Origin: a virus | Taxonomy: Duplodnaviria > Heunggongvirae > Uroviricota > Caudoviricetes | Virus record (IMG/VR): IMGVR_UViG_3300022775_000041 | DNA length: 5,418 nucleotides | Direction: 5' to 3' (one strand) | Shown here: positions 1,949-5,389 of the stretch, piece by piece | Numbering within the stretch: the stretch's first letter is position 1 | Layout of the letters: each line of letters begins with the position of its first letter | Translations under genes and position numbers: made by a program | Notes under the pieces: model-generated | The model's database searches: none | Seen by the model: only the letters and a program-made list of their open reading frames with translations | Told to the model about the DNA's origin: nothing

Positions 1949-2239
1949 TTAGTGATTCAGGCCGTTACCGCGTCCGTCGAGAAAAACTTCCACGAGCAAA
2001 TCACGGGTATAAGTGCGCTCGATGCCGCGATGCAGATAAAGCCGTCCGCGTAAATTAGCTGATGCAGTCCAGGTACCATCTTTGTGTTTGACCAGCATTC
2101 CTGGCATGACCGCACCGCGATTAACGGTCTGCGTTCCGTAATGTTGATGAACCATAAAAACTCCTGCCCGTAAGCTGGGCTGCTGAACATATAGAGACTT
2201 CTGCGCGTATTCAGGCGGTGGATGGCCGCCGGTTGTCAT
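1949..2239 (-). CDS. Hypothetical protein (96 aa from ATG), the only ORF between the pL-like region and gam
   Basis: Open frame 1949..2359 in the ORF track. The first ATG at 2239-2237 has GAGG about 10 nt upstream, giving [96 protein letters not shown]. No family recognised. It occupies the slot where lambda has N, ral, ea10, cIII and kil. Confidence 0.45.
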
Positions 2240-2432
2240 AACTAAGCCGCCTCGTTGAAGCGACTGAGGTATGAGGTGTTGAGTTGATTTCAGCTGGTCA
2301 CACCGACGTTCACGCGTCCGCTTCACCCCTCGCACTCCCCGGAGCCTGCTGAAATTCAAGCTGCGGATCTAAGCGGTCATCGCAACGGTGAATCAGGTGA
2401 TTGCCGTATCGTTGTGTTGTTGCGATGAACTT

Positions 2433-2461
2433 ATTTAAAACTATAGTTGTTTTACCGTCAA
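2433..2461 (-). promoter_or_regulatory. Candidate leftward (pL-like) sigma70 promoter
   Basis: On the minus strand: -35 TTGACG (2461-2456), 17-nt spacer, -10 TTAAAT (2438-2433). It lies in the AT-rich non-coding region just downstream of the cassette terminator and upstream of the leftward early genes. Confidence 0.3.
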
Positions 2462-2510
2462 CAACAAAAGTTGTTTTATTGGTTGTTTTAGATATAACTG
2501 GTTGTATTTA
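2446..2510. repeat. Direct repeats GTTGTTTTA x3 plus one variant GTTGTATTTA
   Basis: Plus-strand copies at 2446-2454, 2470-2478 and 2482-2490, with the variant at 2501-2510. They overlap the pL-like promoter candidate. An inverted repeat AACAAC-aaaa-GTTGTT (2460-2475) sits among them. Confidence 0.5.
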
Positions 2511-2534
2511 GGATGGATTTATTTTGTGACTTGA

Positions 2535-2547
2535 ATCGCATAGCGAT
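2535..2547. promoter_or_regulatory. Palindrome ATCGC-ATA-GCGAT, candidate operator-like site
   Basis: Inverted 5-bp arms ATCGC/GCGAT around ATA. It shares the CGC-N(2-3)-GCG core with the oR palindrome ATACGC-TT-GCGTAT at 5064-5077. Confidence 0.25.
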
Positions 2548-2598
2548 AACTGAAGCGAGGTTATGGTGGTTTTTTGAGCGGTTTGTGTGATGAGGGGA

Positions 2599-2630
2599 GG
2601 CAAAAGAAAACCCGGCACGGTGGCCGGGTT
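2599..2630 (-). terminator. Rho-independent terminator ending the cI-kinase-DUF3037 transcription unit
   Basis: Perfect 8-bp stem AACCCGGC (2609-2616) / GCCGGGTT (2623-2630) with a 6-nt loop. On the minus-strand transcript it is followed by UUUUCUUUUG (rc of plus 2599-2608). It lies 14 nt downstream of the last cassette stop codon (2647-2645). The plus-strand orientation has no U tract. Confidence 0.65.
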
Positions 2631-2644
2631 ATTAATAAGGAATA

Positions 2645-3034
2645 TCACATACAAAAATAAATTTTAAACTTGGGGAAGTATTTTTTTGCAAAATCAATAG
2701 TTTCTTTGTGGTTGGATGCAGGTATATGATTTATTTTCTTAGCATCCATAGTTCTCTTTATGATGTCAATAACTTTGCTTTGGCCTGAGTTTGGTGATTC
2801 AGGAGTTTCAATTGTGAATAAAATGTCATCAAGTGAAAGCAGGTTTTCTTCTGCTGCTCGAGTTATTCTCATCACCCAAGTATCACTATGCTCCATCATT
2901 TTTCCTGGTTCAGCTTGAGTGAATGCCAGAGGTTTGATGGCACATTGGATCCTGTCATGCTTCTTGGCGACCAATGGCATTGAGAACTTTGCGAAATACC
3001 CATCAATGGTTGCTTGTTTGAAGACGTTCTTCAA
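2645..3034 (-). CDS. Hypothetical protein, probably the C-terminal continuation of the DUF3037-like gene after a frame break
   Basis: ORF-track ORF starting at TTG 3034. The frame is actually open from 3061 (NEVSIELDGLKNVFKQATIDGYFAKFSMPLVAKKHDRIQ...KIYFCM). The first ATG (2980) has no convincing SD. Stop at 2647-2645 is followed by the terminator. It overlaps the end of ORF 3003..3491 by about 30-60 nt in a different frame. Confidence 0.4.
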   Translation of the reverse strand: MKNVFKQATIDGYFAKFSMPLVAKKHDRIQCAIKPLAFTQAEPGKMMEHSDTWVMRITRAAEENLLSLDDILFTIETPESPNSGQSKVIDIIKRTMDAKKINHIPASNHKETIDFAKKYFPKFKIYFCM

Positions 3035-3491
3035 TCCATCTAATTCTATCGATACTTCGTTTTAGCTCTCTGGCTAGAACATCTTCACGGCGCTCTTTTG
3101 TGTAGTCAGAGTGGTTTACATATTTATTGTAAATGCGGGCCAGCTCTTCTTTTGGGTTTTCGCTGAGAATCACTCTCGTAGAACTGAACTGAAAAATTGA
3201 TTCTTTTTTGTTTGTAAAATATCTGAAGAATTGTGCAAGTTGTTGATGTCCAACAATCTGGGTCGCATGCATTTTTGCGAACTGTAGTTCTCTTTGTATT
3301 GAGTCTTTTGCTACAGGGAAAATACAATCATCATGGAAAAAATTCTTTACACGAGAGTCATTTCGCTTTGTGAGCTGGAAATCAAAGTAATTTTCTTTTG
3401 GCGCGCACAGAAGTACGCCTATGTTTGCGAACTCTTCAGTCTCCGCATAAGGCGCATAGCGAACGATGCTATATAGGCATGGAGTTGTCAT
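3003..3491 (-). CDS. DUF3037-like hypothetical protein, partner of the HipA-like kinase (possibly truncated by a frame break at about 3003-3061)
   Basis: ATG at 3491-3489 overlaps the kinase stop TGA (3490-3488) as ATGA. GGAG lies about 11 nt upstream. The N-terminus MTTPCLYSIVRYAPYAETEEFANIGVLLCAP resembles, from memory, the DUF3037 N-terminal signature (Y-x-V-x-R-x-x-P...E-x-x-N-I/V-G-V-L-L). The ORF track start at 3506 is TTG. Confidence 0.55.
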   Translation of the reverse strand: MTTPCLYSIVRYAPYAETEEFANIGVLLCAPKENYFDFQLTKRNDSRVKNFFHDDCIFPVAKDSIQRELQFAKMHATQIVGHQQLAQFFRYFTNKKESIFQFSSTRVILSENPKEELARIYNKYVNHSDYTKERREDVLARELKRSIDRIRWIEERLQTSNH

Positions 3492-4237
3492 TCTATTGCG
3501 CTCCAAAATTCATCACAATCACCTTTGTCTAGCGTAGTGCAGACAAAAGGTAAAAACTCCTCATCTACTATCCACTCTTCTGGAATTTCGTCAAGGATAG
3601 CAGGAAGCTTGTGTAAACTGTTAACGACCCTCTGGCGGTACTCTACGCGATCCACTAAATCATATTGCCATTTGCGGTTACCAGGGCCGTACACGTGCAC
3701 AGAAAAATCTTCAGGTCCAGCATTCTGATCAAATGAGAGATTATGGTCAATCAGATAATACTTATCGTTACTGATGTCATAAAGGATGTTAACGTTTCCA
3801 CCTTTGTCAGTAAGCGTTCTGTCTGCATTTAATATCCATTTATCAAAAACATAGATTAATTTTTGCTGTTCGACTGGGATGATCGTTTCGTTTCTTGACT
3901 GCGTAAACGTTAACGCTATTGCACCGTCAATGAACAATGAAGCAAAGGCATATCCTGTACAAATTTGTTGCTGCAGATCAGGTGAGTACTCTATAAGTTC
4001 CTCTGGCACAAATACGATTTTAAAGTCAGGTAAAGGAAGGCCGATATCATTAGCCAAACACGCCGAAATGAACTCAGCTAAGAGATTTTTCGGGGGCATT
4101 GATGGTTTTGACTTCAAAACATACAACTGCCCATCATCACATTTGCAAAGAAATGGCTGAGTGGAACCTTCATTGATGCGACGTATTACCTCAACGACAT
4201 TAGGTATTGCACTATTGCTGCTCGCTACGCACTCCAT
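3488..4237 (-). CDS. HipA-like (protein-kinase-like fold) putative Ser/Thr kinase, stand-alone catalytic core of about 249 aa
   Basis: ATG at 4237-4235 (the track's M at 4240 is GTG) with AAGGG about 7 nt upstream. The C-terminal half carries WILNADRTLTDKGGNVNILYDISNDKYYLIDHNLSFD, which by eye parallels the HipA catalytic region (...IGNTDDHLKNFSLLYDE...LSPAYDL, recalled from memory): catalytic-loop Asp and Asn plus a downstream metal-binding Asp. An upstream LYVLKSKP may hold the ATP-binding Lys. Confidence 0.55.
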   Translation of the reverse strand: MECVASSNSAIPNVVEVIRRINEGSTQPFLCKCDDGQLYVLKSKPSMPPKNLLAEFISACLANDIGLPLPDFKIVFVPEELIEYSPDLQQQICTGYAFASLFIDGAIALTFTQSRNETIIPVEQQKLIYVFDKWILNADRTLTDKGGNVNILYDISNDKYYLIDHNLSFDQNAGPEDFSVHVYGPGNRKWQYDLVDRVEYRQRVVNSLHKLPAILDEIPEEWIVDEEFLPFVCTTLDKGDCDEFWSAIE

Positions 4238-4359
4238 CACTAACCCTTATGTGATTCAAGTCTTCCATCTCATTACTCCGCATCTCAAAGAGCGGTTTAA
4301 CACTGCGTGTTTAAAGAAAAACAACAGGCCTATTGCTGTAACTGTTTTTTAGCCTCACT

Positions 4360-5051
4360 TTAACCATGCTTCCTATATGTCTGCGGCATGCTCCCAATAA
4401 CCTTACCGAAGATGAACACCCGGTTCATCTCGTCTTTCTCGATCGGGTCCCACGGTGAGTAGCTTTTGTTATCAGAGATGACCAGCAGCTTATCCTTCAT
4501 CATTTGCAGGCGCTTTACATGGGCTGTGTCGTCGTACAGAAACGCATAGATACCATCACCGTCGAAAGATTTAACTGTGATATCAACGAACAGCAGATCA
4601 CCTGGTTCGATCGTTCCTGACATGCTGTCACCGCGACGTTAATGATGCGGATATTTTCTGCCTTCCTACCATCGAACATGTGACGAGCATCGTCAAACGA
4701 GTACTCAACCGAGCGTAGAACTTCTACAAACTCACGGTTGATGACTCCCGGCCCGGCACTCACTTCTATATCAAGAACGTCAATCTTGAAGTATTTGGGA
4801 TGGTTGGCAGTAGGCTTCCCTAATTGTTGACCGTCATTTCTCATCGGGCCTATGCCTGATGAGAGCCACTCTGTTCGAACACCCAATGCATTAGCTATTT
4901 CAACAATTTTTGTTGAGCCGCGCGCGTTGCCGCTTGTCAGTCTCCAGATTGTGGGTTGAGCTACGCCAGACGCCTTTGCAAGAGCGCCTTGAGACATTCC
5001 AGATTGTTCCATCGCTAGGTTTAAGCGATCAGCAAGAGTTTCTTTTTTCAT
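4360..5051 (-). pseudogene. cI: cI-type prophage repressor (N-terminal HTH plus C-terminal S24 LexA-like autopeptidase domain); one nucleotide missing between the two domains as sequenced
   Basis: N-terminal frame (ORF 4515..5087) from ATG 5051: MKKETLADRLNLAMEQSGMSQGALAKASGVAQPTIWRLTSGN... with a putative Ala-Gly cleavage site in DIEVSAGPGV. C-terminal frame (ORF 4360..4623): MSGTIEPGDLLFVD...AHVKRLQ...VFIFGKVIG (S24 Ser and Lys motifs). Restoring one nucleotide near 4633-4638 (plus caccgcgacg, inferred caccgcggacg) yields IINVRGDSMSGTIEPGD, a canonical V-x-G-D-S-M motif. The track's TTG start at 5087 lies inside the operator region. Confidence 0.8.
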
Positions 5052-5060
5052 AAGTTTTAA

Positions 5061-5087
5061 TTTATACGCTTGCGTATTGATGGTCAA
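5061..5087 (-). promoter_or_regulatory. Candidate pRM-like promoter for cI (near-leaderless)
   Basis: On the minus strand: -35 TTGACC (5087-5082), 15-nt spacer (suboptimal), -10 TATAAA (5066-5061), ending 9 nt before the cI ATG at 5051. There is no SD before the ATG, consistent with leaderless cI mRNA as in lambda pRM. Confidence 0.3.
5064..5077. promoter_or_regulatory. Operator-like palindrome ATACGC-TT-GCGTAT (OR3-like position within the pRM candidate)
   Basis: Perfect 6-bp inverted arms. It lies between the -35 and -10 of the pRM candidate. Confidence 0.4.
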
Positions 5088-5098
5088 AACACGTTTTG
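5085..5098. promoter_or_regulatory. Palindrome CAAAAC-AC-GTTTTG in the cI-cro intergenic region
   Basis: 6-bp inverted arms, overlapping the pRM -35 candidate. The sequence differs from the ATACGC-type sites, so it may bind a different factor or be coincidental. Confidence 0.25.
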
Positions 5099-5101
5099 CT
5101 A

Positions 5102-5130
5102 TTGTTATGATTAATACGCATTGCTATTAT
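5102..5130 (+). promoter_or_regulatory. Candidate pR-like promoter for cro
   Basis: -35 TTGTTA (5102-5107), 17-nt spacer, -10 TATTAT (5125-5130), about 30 nt upstream of the cro ATG. The spacer and -10 overlap the degenerate operator copy ATACGCATTGCTAT (5114-5127). Confidence 0.35.
5114..5127. promoter_or_regulatory. Degenerate operator copy ATACGCATTGCTAT (OR1-like position within the pR candidate)
   Basis: Shares the ATACGC half-site and the TAT end with the 5064-5077 palindrome. The two sites are 50 bp apart centre to centre. Confidence 0.3.
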
Positions 5131-5161: not shown

Positions 5162-5389
5162 ATGACAAATCAAACCATTCAACTCGCAATCAGTATTACA
5201 GGTAGTCAAAAACGACTGGCAGATCTATGCGGTGTAGCCCAGCCCACTGTTTGGCGTTGGCTACACGGTGGCGGAATTGATGCCCGCTATGTAATGAAAA
5301 TTGTCTCAGCCACTGGTGGAAAGATTAAACCAGCAGATATTCGTCCCGACCTCGCACCATTGTTTAACGCGAGTAATTCTGCCGCCTAA
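5162..5389 (+). CDS. cro: Cro-like HTH transcriptional regulator (Cro/YdaS-type), divergent from cI
   Basis: ATG 5162 with AGGA at 5151-5154. The 75-aa product MTNQTIQLAISITGSQKRLADLCGVAQPTVWRWLHGGGIDARYVMKIVSATGGKIKPADIRPDLAPLF... has a small Cro-like layout and shares the GVAQPT(I/V)WR helix with cI. Stop TAA at 5387-5389. Confidence 0.7.
   Translation: MTNQTIQLAISITGSQKRLADLCGVAQPTVWRWLHGGGIDARYVMKIVSATGGKIKPADIRPDLAPLFNASNSAA

What the first reader, a model, noticed from the sequence alone, without database searches (positions are those of the whole stretch)
2645..4237. HipA-like kinase plus DUF3037-like partner cassette in the rexAB slot downstream of cI
The cassette lies between the cI stop (4360) and the pL-like region, on the same strand as cI, and ends in a strong intrinsic terminator. 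This is exactly where lambda carries rexA-rexB, and where other lambdoid phages carry exclusion genes (sieB in P22 and Rac; the stk kinase in 933W, from memory). The first protein has a HipA-type catalytic signature (NADRT...GNVNILYD...LIDHN) but is only about 249 aa, a stand-alone kinase core. Its partner begins with a DUF3037-like signature (YSIVRYAPYAETEEFANIGVLL). Gene order is kinase first, partner second, the reverse of canonical hipBA, so this is not a textbook toxin-antitoxin pair. I know of no characterised prophage exclusion system with this composition, which makes it a candidate new kinase-based abortive-infection or exclusion module expressed from the lysogen.
Basis: partly seen in the sequence, partly recalled or inferred. 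Interest (0 to 1): 0.85.

Follow-up and report, generated by a model that had tools for sequence, protein, structure and literature searches.

The report
Known HipAD kinase phage-defence cassette

Summary
On the minus strand, downstream of cI, lie a 249-aa kinase (3488-4237; Pfam HipA_2, E 1e-76) and a DUF3037 gene (starts 3491; E 2.6e-24). They overlap by 4 nt and end at a real hairpin terminator (2609-2630).

The system is not new. The kinase is 100% identical to WP_000389051.1 and the partner matches WP_000210934.1. These are the two proteins of DS-6, renamed HipAD, validated in DefensePredictor (PMC13092281). There the pair cut phage Bas1 titre by about 5 log10, and the kinase-dead D139A mutant (the Asp of NADRT) by only 0.9. 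GenBank phage PhiR5_1 annotates the same genes beside cI as "HipA toxin" and "HipD antitoxin". PADLOC lists the pair as candidate PDC-M66.

I found the same pair, order and overlap in Klebsiella, Salmonella and Proteus prophages in the same cI-adjacent slot, and outside prophages in Pseudomonas, Idiomarina and Sphingomonas.

- hipD is broken here by two 1-nt indels (about 3042 and 2680). cI, exo (twice) and bet also carry private 1-nt indels, which are probably sequence errors.
- The window's oL operators belong to a different immunity type from its cI/oR.

Already known; low interest.

The parts
3488..4237 (-). hipA: 249-aa stand-alone HipA_2-family Ser/Thr-type kinase, the toxin/effector of HipAD (DS-6A). 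Intact.
   Evidence: Pfam PF20613 at E 9.9e-77. 100% identical to WP_000389051.1 = DS-6A. K42, E55, D139, N148/N150 and D164-H165-N166 are invariant in 42 homologues. AF2 pLDDT is 90; the fold is closest to PI4K-II alpha and CtkA, with HipA and HipT also hit. PHROG phrog_3162.
2664..3491 (-). hipD: DUF3037-family partner (antitoxin, DS-6B), 275 aa in the reference. Here it is interrupted by a +1 indel near 3042 and a -1 indel (A8 to A7 on the coding strand) near 2680.
   Evidence: Residues 1-150 and 155-270 are identical to WP_000210934.1. Removing one base at 3041-3043 and adding one at 2680 restores the exact 275-aa protein. Pfam DUF3037 at E 2.6e-24. phrog_5137 at E 3e-125 for the intact form. 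All 120 homologues are about 270-284 aa single proteins.
3003..3491 (-). hipD N-terminal fragment as written in the window: DUF3037 domain plus helix (aa 1-150), then 12 out-of-frame residues and a stop.
   Evidence: In the AF2 model of the intact protein, the frameshift falls between helix 135-148 and the first strand of the C-terminal domain.
2645..3034 (-). hipD C-terminal fragment as written in the window (aa 153-270 of HipD, then an out-of-frame tail YFPKFKIYFCM). It is not a third gene.
   Evidence: No Pfam or PADLOC hit on its own. It corresponds to the restriction-endonuclease-like C-terminal domain of the model.
2599..2630 (-). Intrinsic terminator closing the cI-hipA-hipD transcription unit.
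   Evidence: 8-bp stem with 6 G-C pairs, 6-nt loop, tail UUUUCUUUU. Hairpin -14.2 kcal/mol (centroid); z -2.95 for the 61-nt stretch. Conserved in PhiR5_1 and two E. coli prophages.
4238..4359 (-). cI-hipA spacer with the hipA ribosome-binding site (AAGGG, 6 nt before the ATG). No consensus sigma-70 promoter was found on this strand.
   Evidence: Direct reading; promoter scan.
4360..5051 (-). cI repressor (HTH plus S24 peptidase), upstream neighbour and probable co-transcription partner. Frameshifted by a 1-nt deletion at about 4635.
   Evidence: The HTH_3/Phage_CI_repr part lies in ORF 4515-5087 and the Peptidase_S24 part in ORF 4360-4623. It is a single 693-nt CDS in E. coli STN0717-20. The indel is absent from both references.
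2437..2490 (.). oL/pL-type operator cluster just beyond the terminator. It defines the far edge of the rexAB-equivalent slot. The operators are of the PhiR5_1 immunity type, not of this window's cI/oR type.
   Evidence: AAAACAACTATAGTTTT at 2437-2453 matches the PhiR5_1 oR operator with 1 mismatch (0.01 expected by chance).

Best explanation
This is a copy of HipAD (DS-6), a two-gene, toxin-antitoxin-like anti-phage system carried as a low-GC 'moron' in the rexAB-equivalent slot of lambdoid prophages.

HipA is a minimal 249-aa protein-kinase-fold enzyme of Pfam family HipA_2. HipD has two parts. The first is an N-terminal DUF3037 domain. The second is a C-terminal restriction-endonuclease-like domain that appears catalytically degenerate.

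Proposed mechanism:
1. In the lysogen the pair is made with or just after cI. The two genes are translationally coupled through a 4-nt ATGA overlap.
2. HipD holds HipA inactive.
3. Infection by a sensitive phage relieves this inhibition.
4. HipA phosphorylates a target that is not identified in anything I could read, and this stops phage production, probably by abortive infection.

Shown by sequence, or by published experiments on identical proteins: the identity of the system, the anti-phage phenotype, and the need for catalytic Asp139.

Shown only for a homologous pair: HipD acts as the neutraliser.

Inferred: co-transcription with cI, the trigger, the substrate, abortive versus non-abortive outcome, and DNA binding by the HipD C-terminal domain.

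The frameshifts in hipD in this window are most likely sequence errors rather than biology.
For: Identity:
- The kinase is 100% identical to WP_000389051.1 over 249 aa. HipD is identical to WP_000210934.1 apart from two 1-nt indels.
- Both accessions are listed as DS-6 (working name HIPA) in the DefensePredictor supplement.
- The main text says DS-6 was 'renamed HipAD' and that a catalytic mutant loses defence.
- Supplement data for phage Bas1: titre falls 5.18 log10 with wild type and 0.88 log10 with D139A.
- D139 is the Asp of NADRT and is invariant across 42 homologues.

Annotation and candidate lists:
- GenBank PV340545.1 (phage PhiR5_1) annotates the 99.8%-identical genes as 'HipA toxin' and 'HipD antitoxin' next to cI.
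- PADLOC PDC-M66A and PDC-M66B hit at E about 6e-15 each.

Toxin-antitoxin behaviour:
- In a homologous pair in the Retron-Sda1 operon, deleting the kinase abolishes defence and deleting DUF3037 is toxic (PMC12548924).

Conservation:
- The order HipA_2 then DUF3037, with a 4-nt overlap, is kept in Pseudomonas, Idiomarina and Sphingomonas.
- The cI-adjacent slot is kept in Proteus, Salmonella and Klebsiella prophages.
- 284 of 5,426 complete E. coli genomes carry at least 80% of the cassette.

Structure:
- The kinase model has pLDDT 90 and a PI4K-II/CtkA/HipA-like fold.

Composition:
- GC is 0.36-0.44 in the cassette and 0.50-0.55 in exo-bet-gam.
Against: - As written, hipD is split in this window. 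If that is real, this copy lacks a full-length antitoxin, so it should be toxic or silent.
- I could not read the primary HipAD paper (Brenes & Laub 2025). What it reports about trigger, target, phage range or abortive infection is unknown to me.
- The abortive-infection and toxin-antitoxin model is stated only as a hypothesis in PMC13092281.
[quoted passage not shown] Transcription may therefore not depend on pRM alone.
Confidence: 0.85

Rival explanations
1. The copy in this window is a genuinely decayed, non-functional remnant. The private indels in hipD, cI, exo and bet are real mutations in a defective, recombinant prophage, so no working defence system is encoded here.
For: - Six 1-nt indels in coding sequence (240, 511, 1547, 2680, 3042, 4635) are absent from PhiR5_1 and from E. 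coli STN0717-20.
- The sequence carrying the 3042 indel is found in none of the complete E. coli genomes, GTDB representatives, IMG/VR or JGI metagenomes.
- The oL operators do not match the cI/oR type, as expected of a scrambled prophage.
Against: - Positions 2500-4360 are identical to E. coli FDAARGOS_1372 except for the two indels: zero substitutions against two indels. From general knowledge, spontaneous mutations in E. coli are mostly substitutions.
- By my reading of the flanking bases, four of the six indels (511, 1547, 2680, 4635) change the length of a 2-8 nt homopolymer run. The 240 deletion may too, but its placement is ambiguous. This is a typical sequencing-error signature.
- Losing cI would derepress kil, and losing the antitoxin while the toxin stays intact should both be counter-selected (PMC12548924).
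Confidence: 0.2
2. The kinase excludes phages without killing the cell. It would directly phosphorylate a phage protein or a host factor the phage needs, as prophage 933W Stk does against HK97 (recalled from memory). HipD would be a regulator or sensor rather than an antitoxin.
For: - Defence needs the catalytic Asp.
- Nothing I could read shows culture collapse or cell death for DS-6. [quoted passage not shown]
- The fold is as close to the non-toxin kinases PI4K-II and CtkA as to HipA.
Against: Deleting the DUF3037 gene of a homologous pair made the construct toxic (PMC12548924). This implies the free kinase harms the host, as in toxin-antitoxin abortive systems.
Confidence: 0.15
3. The pair is mainly an addiction or persistence toxin-antitoxin module that stabilises the prophage, as classical HipBA promotes persistence. 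On this view phage defence is incidental.
For: - Toxin/antitoxin behaviour of a homologous pair.
- Family-level relation to HipA.
- Occurrence outside prophages in Pseudomonas, Idiomarina and Sphingomonas chromosomes.
Against: - About 5 log10 protection against Bas1 from a low-copy plasmid with the native promoter region.
- Recurrent placement in the classic exclusion-gene slot next to cI in four genera.
- In Idiomarina the pair lies next to KAP/AAA NTPase genes, which looks like a defence island.
Confidence: 0.05

Closest known systems
HipAD = DS-6 (E. coli ECOR prophage; WP_000389051.1 + WP_000210934.1). Sources: DefensePredictor, Science 2026, PMC13092281; Brenes & Laub, Cell Host Microbe 2025, cited there; annotated in phage PhiR5_1, PV340545.1.
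   Same: The kinase is 100% identical. HipD is identical outside the two indels. Gene order, the 4-nt overlap, the terminator and the position directly downstream of cI are all the same.
   Different: This copy has two 1-nt indels in hipD and one in cI. It is also joined to a different cI/oR immunity type from PhiR5_1 while keeping PhiR5_1-type oL operators.
PADLOC candidate system PDC-M66 (A + B)
   Same: Both proteins hit the two PDC-M66 models, with the same two-gene composition of HipA-like kinase and DUF3037 protein (described as such in PMC12548924).
   Different: The matches are modest (E about 6e-15) and cover only the N-terminal 60% or so of each model. The E. coli prophage pair is therefore a distant subfamily of the sequences behind the PADLOC models.
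HipA/DUF3037 pair embedded in the Retron-Sda1 operon (PMC12548924)
   Same: Same domain pair. It works as a stand-alone defence in which the kinase is needed and deleting the DUF3037 gene is toxic.
   Different: It sits in a retron operon, not a prophage immunity region, and was tested against phage Bas51. I did not measure its sequence identity to the window proteins.
Canonical HipBA (E. coli K-12) and HipBST
   Same: Protein-kinase-like toxin of the HipA superfamily neutralised by a partner protein. Foldseek hits HipA (4pu5, E 2.6e-4) and HipT (8ezr, E 2.4e-3). Like HipT, it is a short kinase lacking the HipA N-terminal subdomain.
   Different: - No HipA_C, HipA_N or Couple_hipA Pfam match.
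- No HipB-type HTH antitoxin.
- The order is toxin first.
- The substrate is unknown here. K-12 HipA phosphorylates GltX, as stated in PMC13092281.
Lambda RexAB; 933W Stk (recalled from memory)
   Same: Lysogen-expressed exclusion genes occupying the slot between cI and oL/pL on the cI strand. Stk is also a kinase.
   Different: There is no homology. RexA/RexB is a sensor plus membrane-channel pair, and Stk is a eukaryote-type Ser/Thr kinase encoded by a single gene. Neither Rex nor Pkinase Pfam families hit the window proteins.

Membership tests
HipAD / DS-6 | Kinase of Pfam HipA_2 type, essentially the DS-6A sequence | tested here: met
   PF20613 at E 9.9e-77. 249 of 249 residues identical to WP_000389051.1.
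HipAD / DS-6 | Single roughly 275-aa partner with an N-terminal DUF3037 domain and a C-terminal (DUF1829-like) domain | tested here: inconclusive
   The sequence is that of WP_000210934.1, but two 1-nt indels split it into two ORFs as written. It is intact in 284 E. coli genomes and all 120 homologues. The indels are probably errors.
HipAD / DS-6 | Operon order kinase then partner, with overlapping stop and start | tested here: met
   ATGA overlap at 3488-3491. The same 4-nt overlap occurs in L004-L017.
HipAD / DS-6 | Catalytic Asp139 required for defence | tested here: met
   D139 (NADRT) is present and invariant. The functional requirement is published and was not re-tested here.
HipAD / DS-6 | Anti-phage phenotype | not testable with these tools
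   Published for the identical proteins: Bas1 titre down 5.18 log10.
PADLOC PDC-M66 | Adjacent genes matching the PDC-M66A and PDC-M66B HMMs | tested here: met
   E 5.8e-15 and 6.4e-15, with partial model coverage.
Canonical HipBA type II TA | Toxin with HipA_C (PF07804) and the N-terminal HipA_N/Couple_hipA domains | tested here: not met
   Only HipA_2 was hit at E <= 1. The protein is 249 aa, against roughly 420-440 aa for the HipA chains. NCBIfam gave no HipA family hit.
Canonical HipBA type II TA | Upstream HipB-type HTH antitoxin | tested here: not met
   The upstream gene is the phage cI repressor. The partner is downstream and is DUF3037 with no HTH Pfam hit.
Canonical HipBA type II TA | Protein-kinase-like fold related to HipA | tested here: met
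   Foldseek: HipA 4pu5 at E 2.6e-4, probability 1.00, TMq 0.44. PI4K-II alpha (TMq 0.60) and CtkA score higher.
Lambda rexAB-slot exclusion moron | Located between the cI stop and oL/pL, on the cI strand, terminator-bounded | tested here: met
   cI stop at 4360, cassette 2664-4237, terminator 2609-2630, operator cluster 2437-2490. The same slot is used in Proteus (cI-HipA-HipD-N), Salmonella and Klebsiella.
Lambda rexAB-slot exclusion moron | Homology to RexA/RexB | tested here: not met
   No Rex family appears among the Pfam hits.

The most novel reading that the evidence does not exclude
The indels and the operator mismatch are real. The window would then be a natural recombinant between two heteroimmune lambdoid prophages that crossed over inside their shared hipAD-cI(C-terminal) segment. 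In it, an intact HipA kinase would be tolerated alongside a truncated HipD consisting only of the DUF3037 domain (aa 1-150).

This would show two things:
- The DUF3037 domain alone is the antitoxin, and the nuclease-like C-terminal domain is dispensable for neutralisation, perhaps acting as the phage sensor.
- A shared defence moron can act as a recombination bridge that splits immunity regions.
Probability: 0.1. Interest if true: 0.35.

Novelty: already known. Interest (0 to 1): 0.12.

Why it matters
As a discovery it adds little.

The value of this check is mostly in settling three points:
- A sequence-only reader correctly inferred the function from motifs and position.
- The 'third ORF' is the tail of hipD, not a separate gene.
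- This window's frameshifts should not be read as biology without the raw reads.

Two open points from what I could access:
- The kinase substrate and the phage trigger.
- The role of the HipD C-terminal domain, which has a restriction-endonuclease-like fold but lacks the catalytic acidic residues.

Tried and rejected
- **Canonical HipA membership.** HipA_C, HipA_N and Couple_hipA gave no Pfam hit at E <= 1, and NCBIfam gave nothing relevant. I filed the kinase under HipA_2/HipAD instead.
- **ORF 2645-3034 as a third gene.** Rejected. It is residues 153-270 of HipD in a shifted frame.
- **Sequence search of PDB with both proteins.** No meaningful hits.
- **Rfam scan of the whole window at E <= 1.** No RNA family.
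- **Promoter in the cI-hipA spacer.** None found by the consensus scan.
- **Primary HipAD paper (Brenes & Laub 2025).** Not held by DOI or PMID. No PMC id was found through citing papers. Text searches for 'HipAD' and 'HipD' returned unrelated papers or nothing.
- **Source of the window or a second instance of the 3042 frameshift.**
  - Exact 34-mer scans of GTDB representatives, IMG/VR and JGI metagenomes found nothing.
  - The truncated 162-aa product is not in the gene index.
  - The best full-length match among complete E. coli genomes is only 97.2%.
Full report
**Anatomy**

The window is a lambdoid early and immunity region. On the minus strand, in + strand coordinate order, it carries:
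- exo (94-790), bet (787-about 1572), gam (1577-1873) and kil (1949-2155);
- an operator/promoter cluster (about 2437-2490);
- a terminator (2609-2630);
- two overlapping genes, hipD (2664-3491) and hipA (3488-4237);
- cI (4360-5051).

cro is on the plus strand (5162-5389). The cassette has 0.36-0.44 GC against 0.50-0.55 for exo-bet-gam, as expected of an acquired moron.

**Check of the observation**

The kinase ORF is 249 aa from the ATG at 4237. It matches Pfam HipA_2 (PF20613) end to end at E 9.9e-77. The next gene starts at 3491, inside the kinase stop codon (ATGA). It matches DUF3037 (PF11236) over the whole profile at E 2.6e-24. It has an 8-bp stem with 6 G-C pairs, followed by UUUUCUUUU on the minus strand. 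The hairpin has centroid energy -14.2 kcal/mol, and the 61-nt stretch folds at z = -2.95. The Pfam family is HipA_2, however, not HipA_C, which gave no hit.

**What it is**

A search of annotated phages found one near-identical cassette (99.8%) in Escherichia phage PhiR5_1. There the two genes, directly downstream of cI, are annotated 'HipA toxin' and 'HipD antitoxin'. RefSeq calls them 'HipA family kinase' (WP_000389051.1) and 'DUF3037 domain-containing protein' (WP_000210934.1, 275 aa).

Both accessions, with their sequences, appear in the supplement of DefensePredictor (PMC13092281) as system DS-6, working name HIPA. The window kinase is identical to DS-6A at all 249 residues. The partner is identical to DS-6B over residues 1-150 and 155-270.

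The paper describes DS-6A as a HipA-related kinase and DS-6B as a DUF3037/DUF1829 protein. It states that the system was independently found and renamed HipAD (Brenes & Laub 2025) and that a catalytic mutant loses defence. [quoted passage not shown] In its plating data, Bas1 titre falls 5.18 log10 with the wild type and 0.88 log10 with D139A. It is invariant in my alignment, together with K42, E55, N148/N150 and D164-H165-N166 (the LIDHN motif).

PADLOC already lists the pair as candidate PDC-M66; both models hit at E about 6e-15. A second paper (PMC12548924) shows that, for a homologous pair in a retron operon, removing the kinase abolishes defence and removing the DUF3037 gene is toxic.

**Conservation**

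- The partner family is uniformly about 270-284 aa across Enterobacterales, Pseudomonas, Idiomarina and sphingomonads.
- In every neighbourhood I opened, a HipA_2 gene precedes the DUF3037 gene with a 4-nt overlap.
  - Outside prophages: Pseudomonas, Idiomarina and Sphingomonas.
  - In prophages, in the same slot after the repressor: Proteus (cI-HipA-HipD-N), Salmonella and Klebsiella.
- Among 5,426 complete E. coli genomes, 284 carry at least 80% of the cassette.
- In E. coli the cassette is attached to at least two different repressor/operator types.

**Structure**

The kinase model (pLDDT 90) is a compact protein-kinase-like fold. Its best solved matches are PI4K-II alpha (TMq 0.60) and H. 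pylori CtkA, with Shewanella HipA (E 2.6e-4) and Legionella HipT also hit. 'HipA-like' is therefore a superfamily statement, and the canonical HipA features are absent: the N-terminal subdomains, the HipB partner and antitoxin-first order.

The HipD model (pLDDT 91, pTM 0.54) has two domains:
- Domain 1, residues 1-124, is DUF3037.
- Residues 135-271 form an alpha-beta-beta-beta-alpha-beta core.

In the family alignment, P172-L/F173 and A184-I185-K186 sit at the positions where I would expect PD and (D/E)xK from the strand order. E136, Q192, H201 and W205 are conserved. I infer a non-catalytic, possibly DNA-binding module. This agrees with the AlphaFold3 DNA-contact prediction reported in PMC13092281.

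**Mechanism**

Shown for these exact proteins, or by direct sequence analysis:
- HipAD protects against phage, and protection needs the kinase catalytic Asp.
- The genes are translationally coupled.
- They lie in a terminator-bounded unit on the cI strand.

Shown only for a homologue:
- The DUF3037 protein neutralises a toxic kinase.

Inferred:
- Expression in the lysogen with cI, by analogy with lambda rexAB (from general knowledge). No promoter-like site is in the spacer, although the published clone worked from its own upstream region.
- Release of HipA on infection.
- A host or phage substrate whose phosphorylation blocks phage production.
- Abortive infection.

**State of this copy**

Relative to both PhiR5_1 and E. 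coli STN0717-20, the window has private 1-nt indels at 240 and 511 (exo), 1547 (bet), 2680 and 3042 (hipD), and 4635 (cI). Repairing the two hipD indels restores the exact reference protein. Positions 2500-4360 otherwise match E. coli FDAARGOS_1372 base for base.

Three points suggest sequence errors rather than decay:
- By my reading of the flanking bases, four of the six indels (511, 1547, 2680, 4635) change the length of a short homopolymer run. The 240 deletion may too, but its placement is ambiguous; 3042 does not.
- There are zero substitutions against two indels across the cassette.
- Both losing cI and losing the antitoxin should be deleterious.

I cannot prove this. The 3042 variant exists in no collection I could scan.

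**Seen in passing**

The window's left operators are of the PhiR5_1 type; AAAACAACTATAGTTTT at 2437-2453 differs by one base from the PhiR5_1 oR operator. Its right operators and cI N-terminal domain are of the STN0717-20 type; ATACGCATTGCTAT occurs only at 5089 and 5114. In the two reference prophage types, oL and oR match each other.

The window is therefore a hybrid. The junction lies somewhere in the segment the two types share, about 2570-4630, covering hipAD and the cI C-terminal domain. It is either a real recombinant or an assembly mis-join between two prophages that both carry hipAD.

**Verdict**

The copy here shows no new feature that survives the likely-artefact explanation.

Noticed in passing
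window 240, 511, 1547, 2680, 3042, 4635: Six private single-base indels, all in coding sequence: exo twice, bet, hipD twice, cI. By my reading of the flanking bases, four (511, 1547, 2680, 4635) change a homopolymer run of 2-8 nt, the 240 deletion is ambiguous, and 3042 does not. They are absent from PhiR5_1 and E. coli STN0717-20. Between 2500 and 4360 they are the only differences from E. coli FDAARGOS_1372. This looks like sequencing or assembly error.
   Followed up: partly
window 2437-2490 versus 5064-5127: Hybrid immunity region. The oL-side operators are of the PhiR5_1/FDAARGOS type (AACAAC..GTTGTT). The cI N-terminal domain and oR operators are of the STN0717-20 type (ATACGC..TTGCTAT). 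In both reference prophage types oL and oR match. The junction must lie in the shared hipAD-cI C-terminal segment. It is either a real recombinant or an assembly chimera.
   Followed up: partly
window 4360-5051 (minus strand), indel at about 4635: cI is split between its HTH part and its S24 peptidase part by a 1-nt deletion (..IINV | RGDSMSGT..). It is intact as a 693-nt CDS in relatives.
   Followed up: yes
window 2156-2436; compare L009-L011 5173-5493: There is no N-like ORF between the pL-side operators and kil in this window or its E. coli relatives. The Proteus prophages with the same cassette have an N_peptide gene right after hipD. The antitermination arrangement of the E. coli phage type was not examined, and Rfam found nothing here.
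   Followed up: no
HipD residues 135-271 (window about 2664-3090, minus strand): The HipD C-terminal domain is predicted to have a restriction-endonuclease-like (PD-(D/E)xK) fold. The acidic catalytic residues are replaced (P172-L173, A184-I185-K186), while E136, K186, Q192, H201 and W205 are invariant or nearly so. It is probably a non-catalytic nucleic-acid-binding or sensing module.
   Followed up: partly
L010 5571-6698, L011 5607-6698, L009 5710-6249: In Proteus prophages, the gene after hipAD-N is a 363-375-aa RelA_SpoT-domain protein in two loci and a ClpP-family protease in a third. These are variable cargo that may be further defence genes (toxSAS-like).
   Followed up: no
L005/L006 4911-8257: In Idiomarina the HipA_2-DUF3037 pair lies next to a 608-aa AAA_22/KAP-like NTPase and a 488-aa unannotated protein. 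This is a defence-island-like neighbourhood outside any prophage.
   Followed up: no
L003 378-1633: In E. coli STN0717-20 the related prophage is integrated at a tRNA-Arg gene next to fimZ, with an intD integrase gene. From memory, this is the DLP12/argU attachment site.
   Followed up: no
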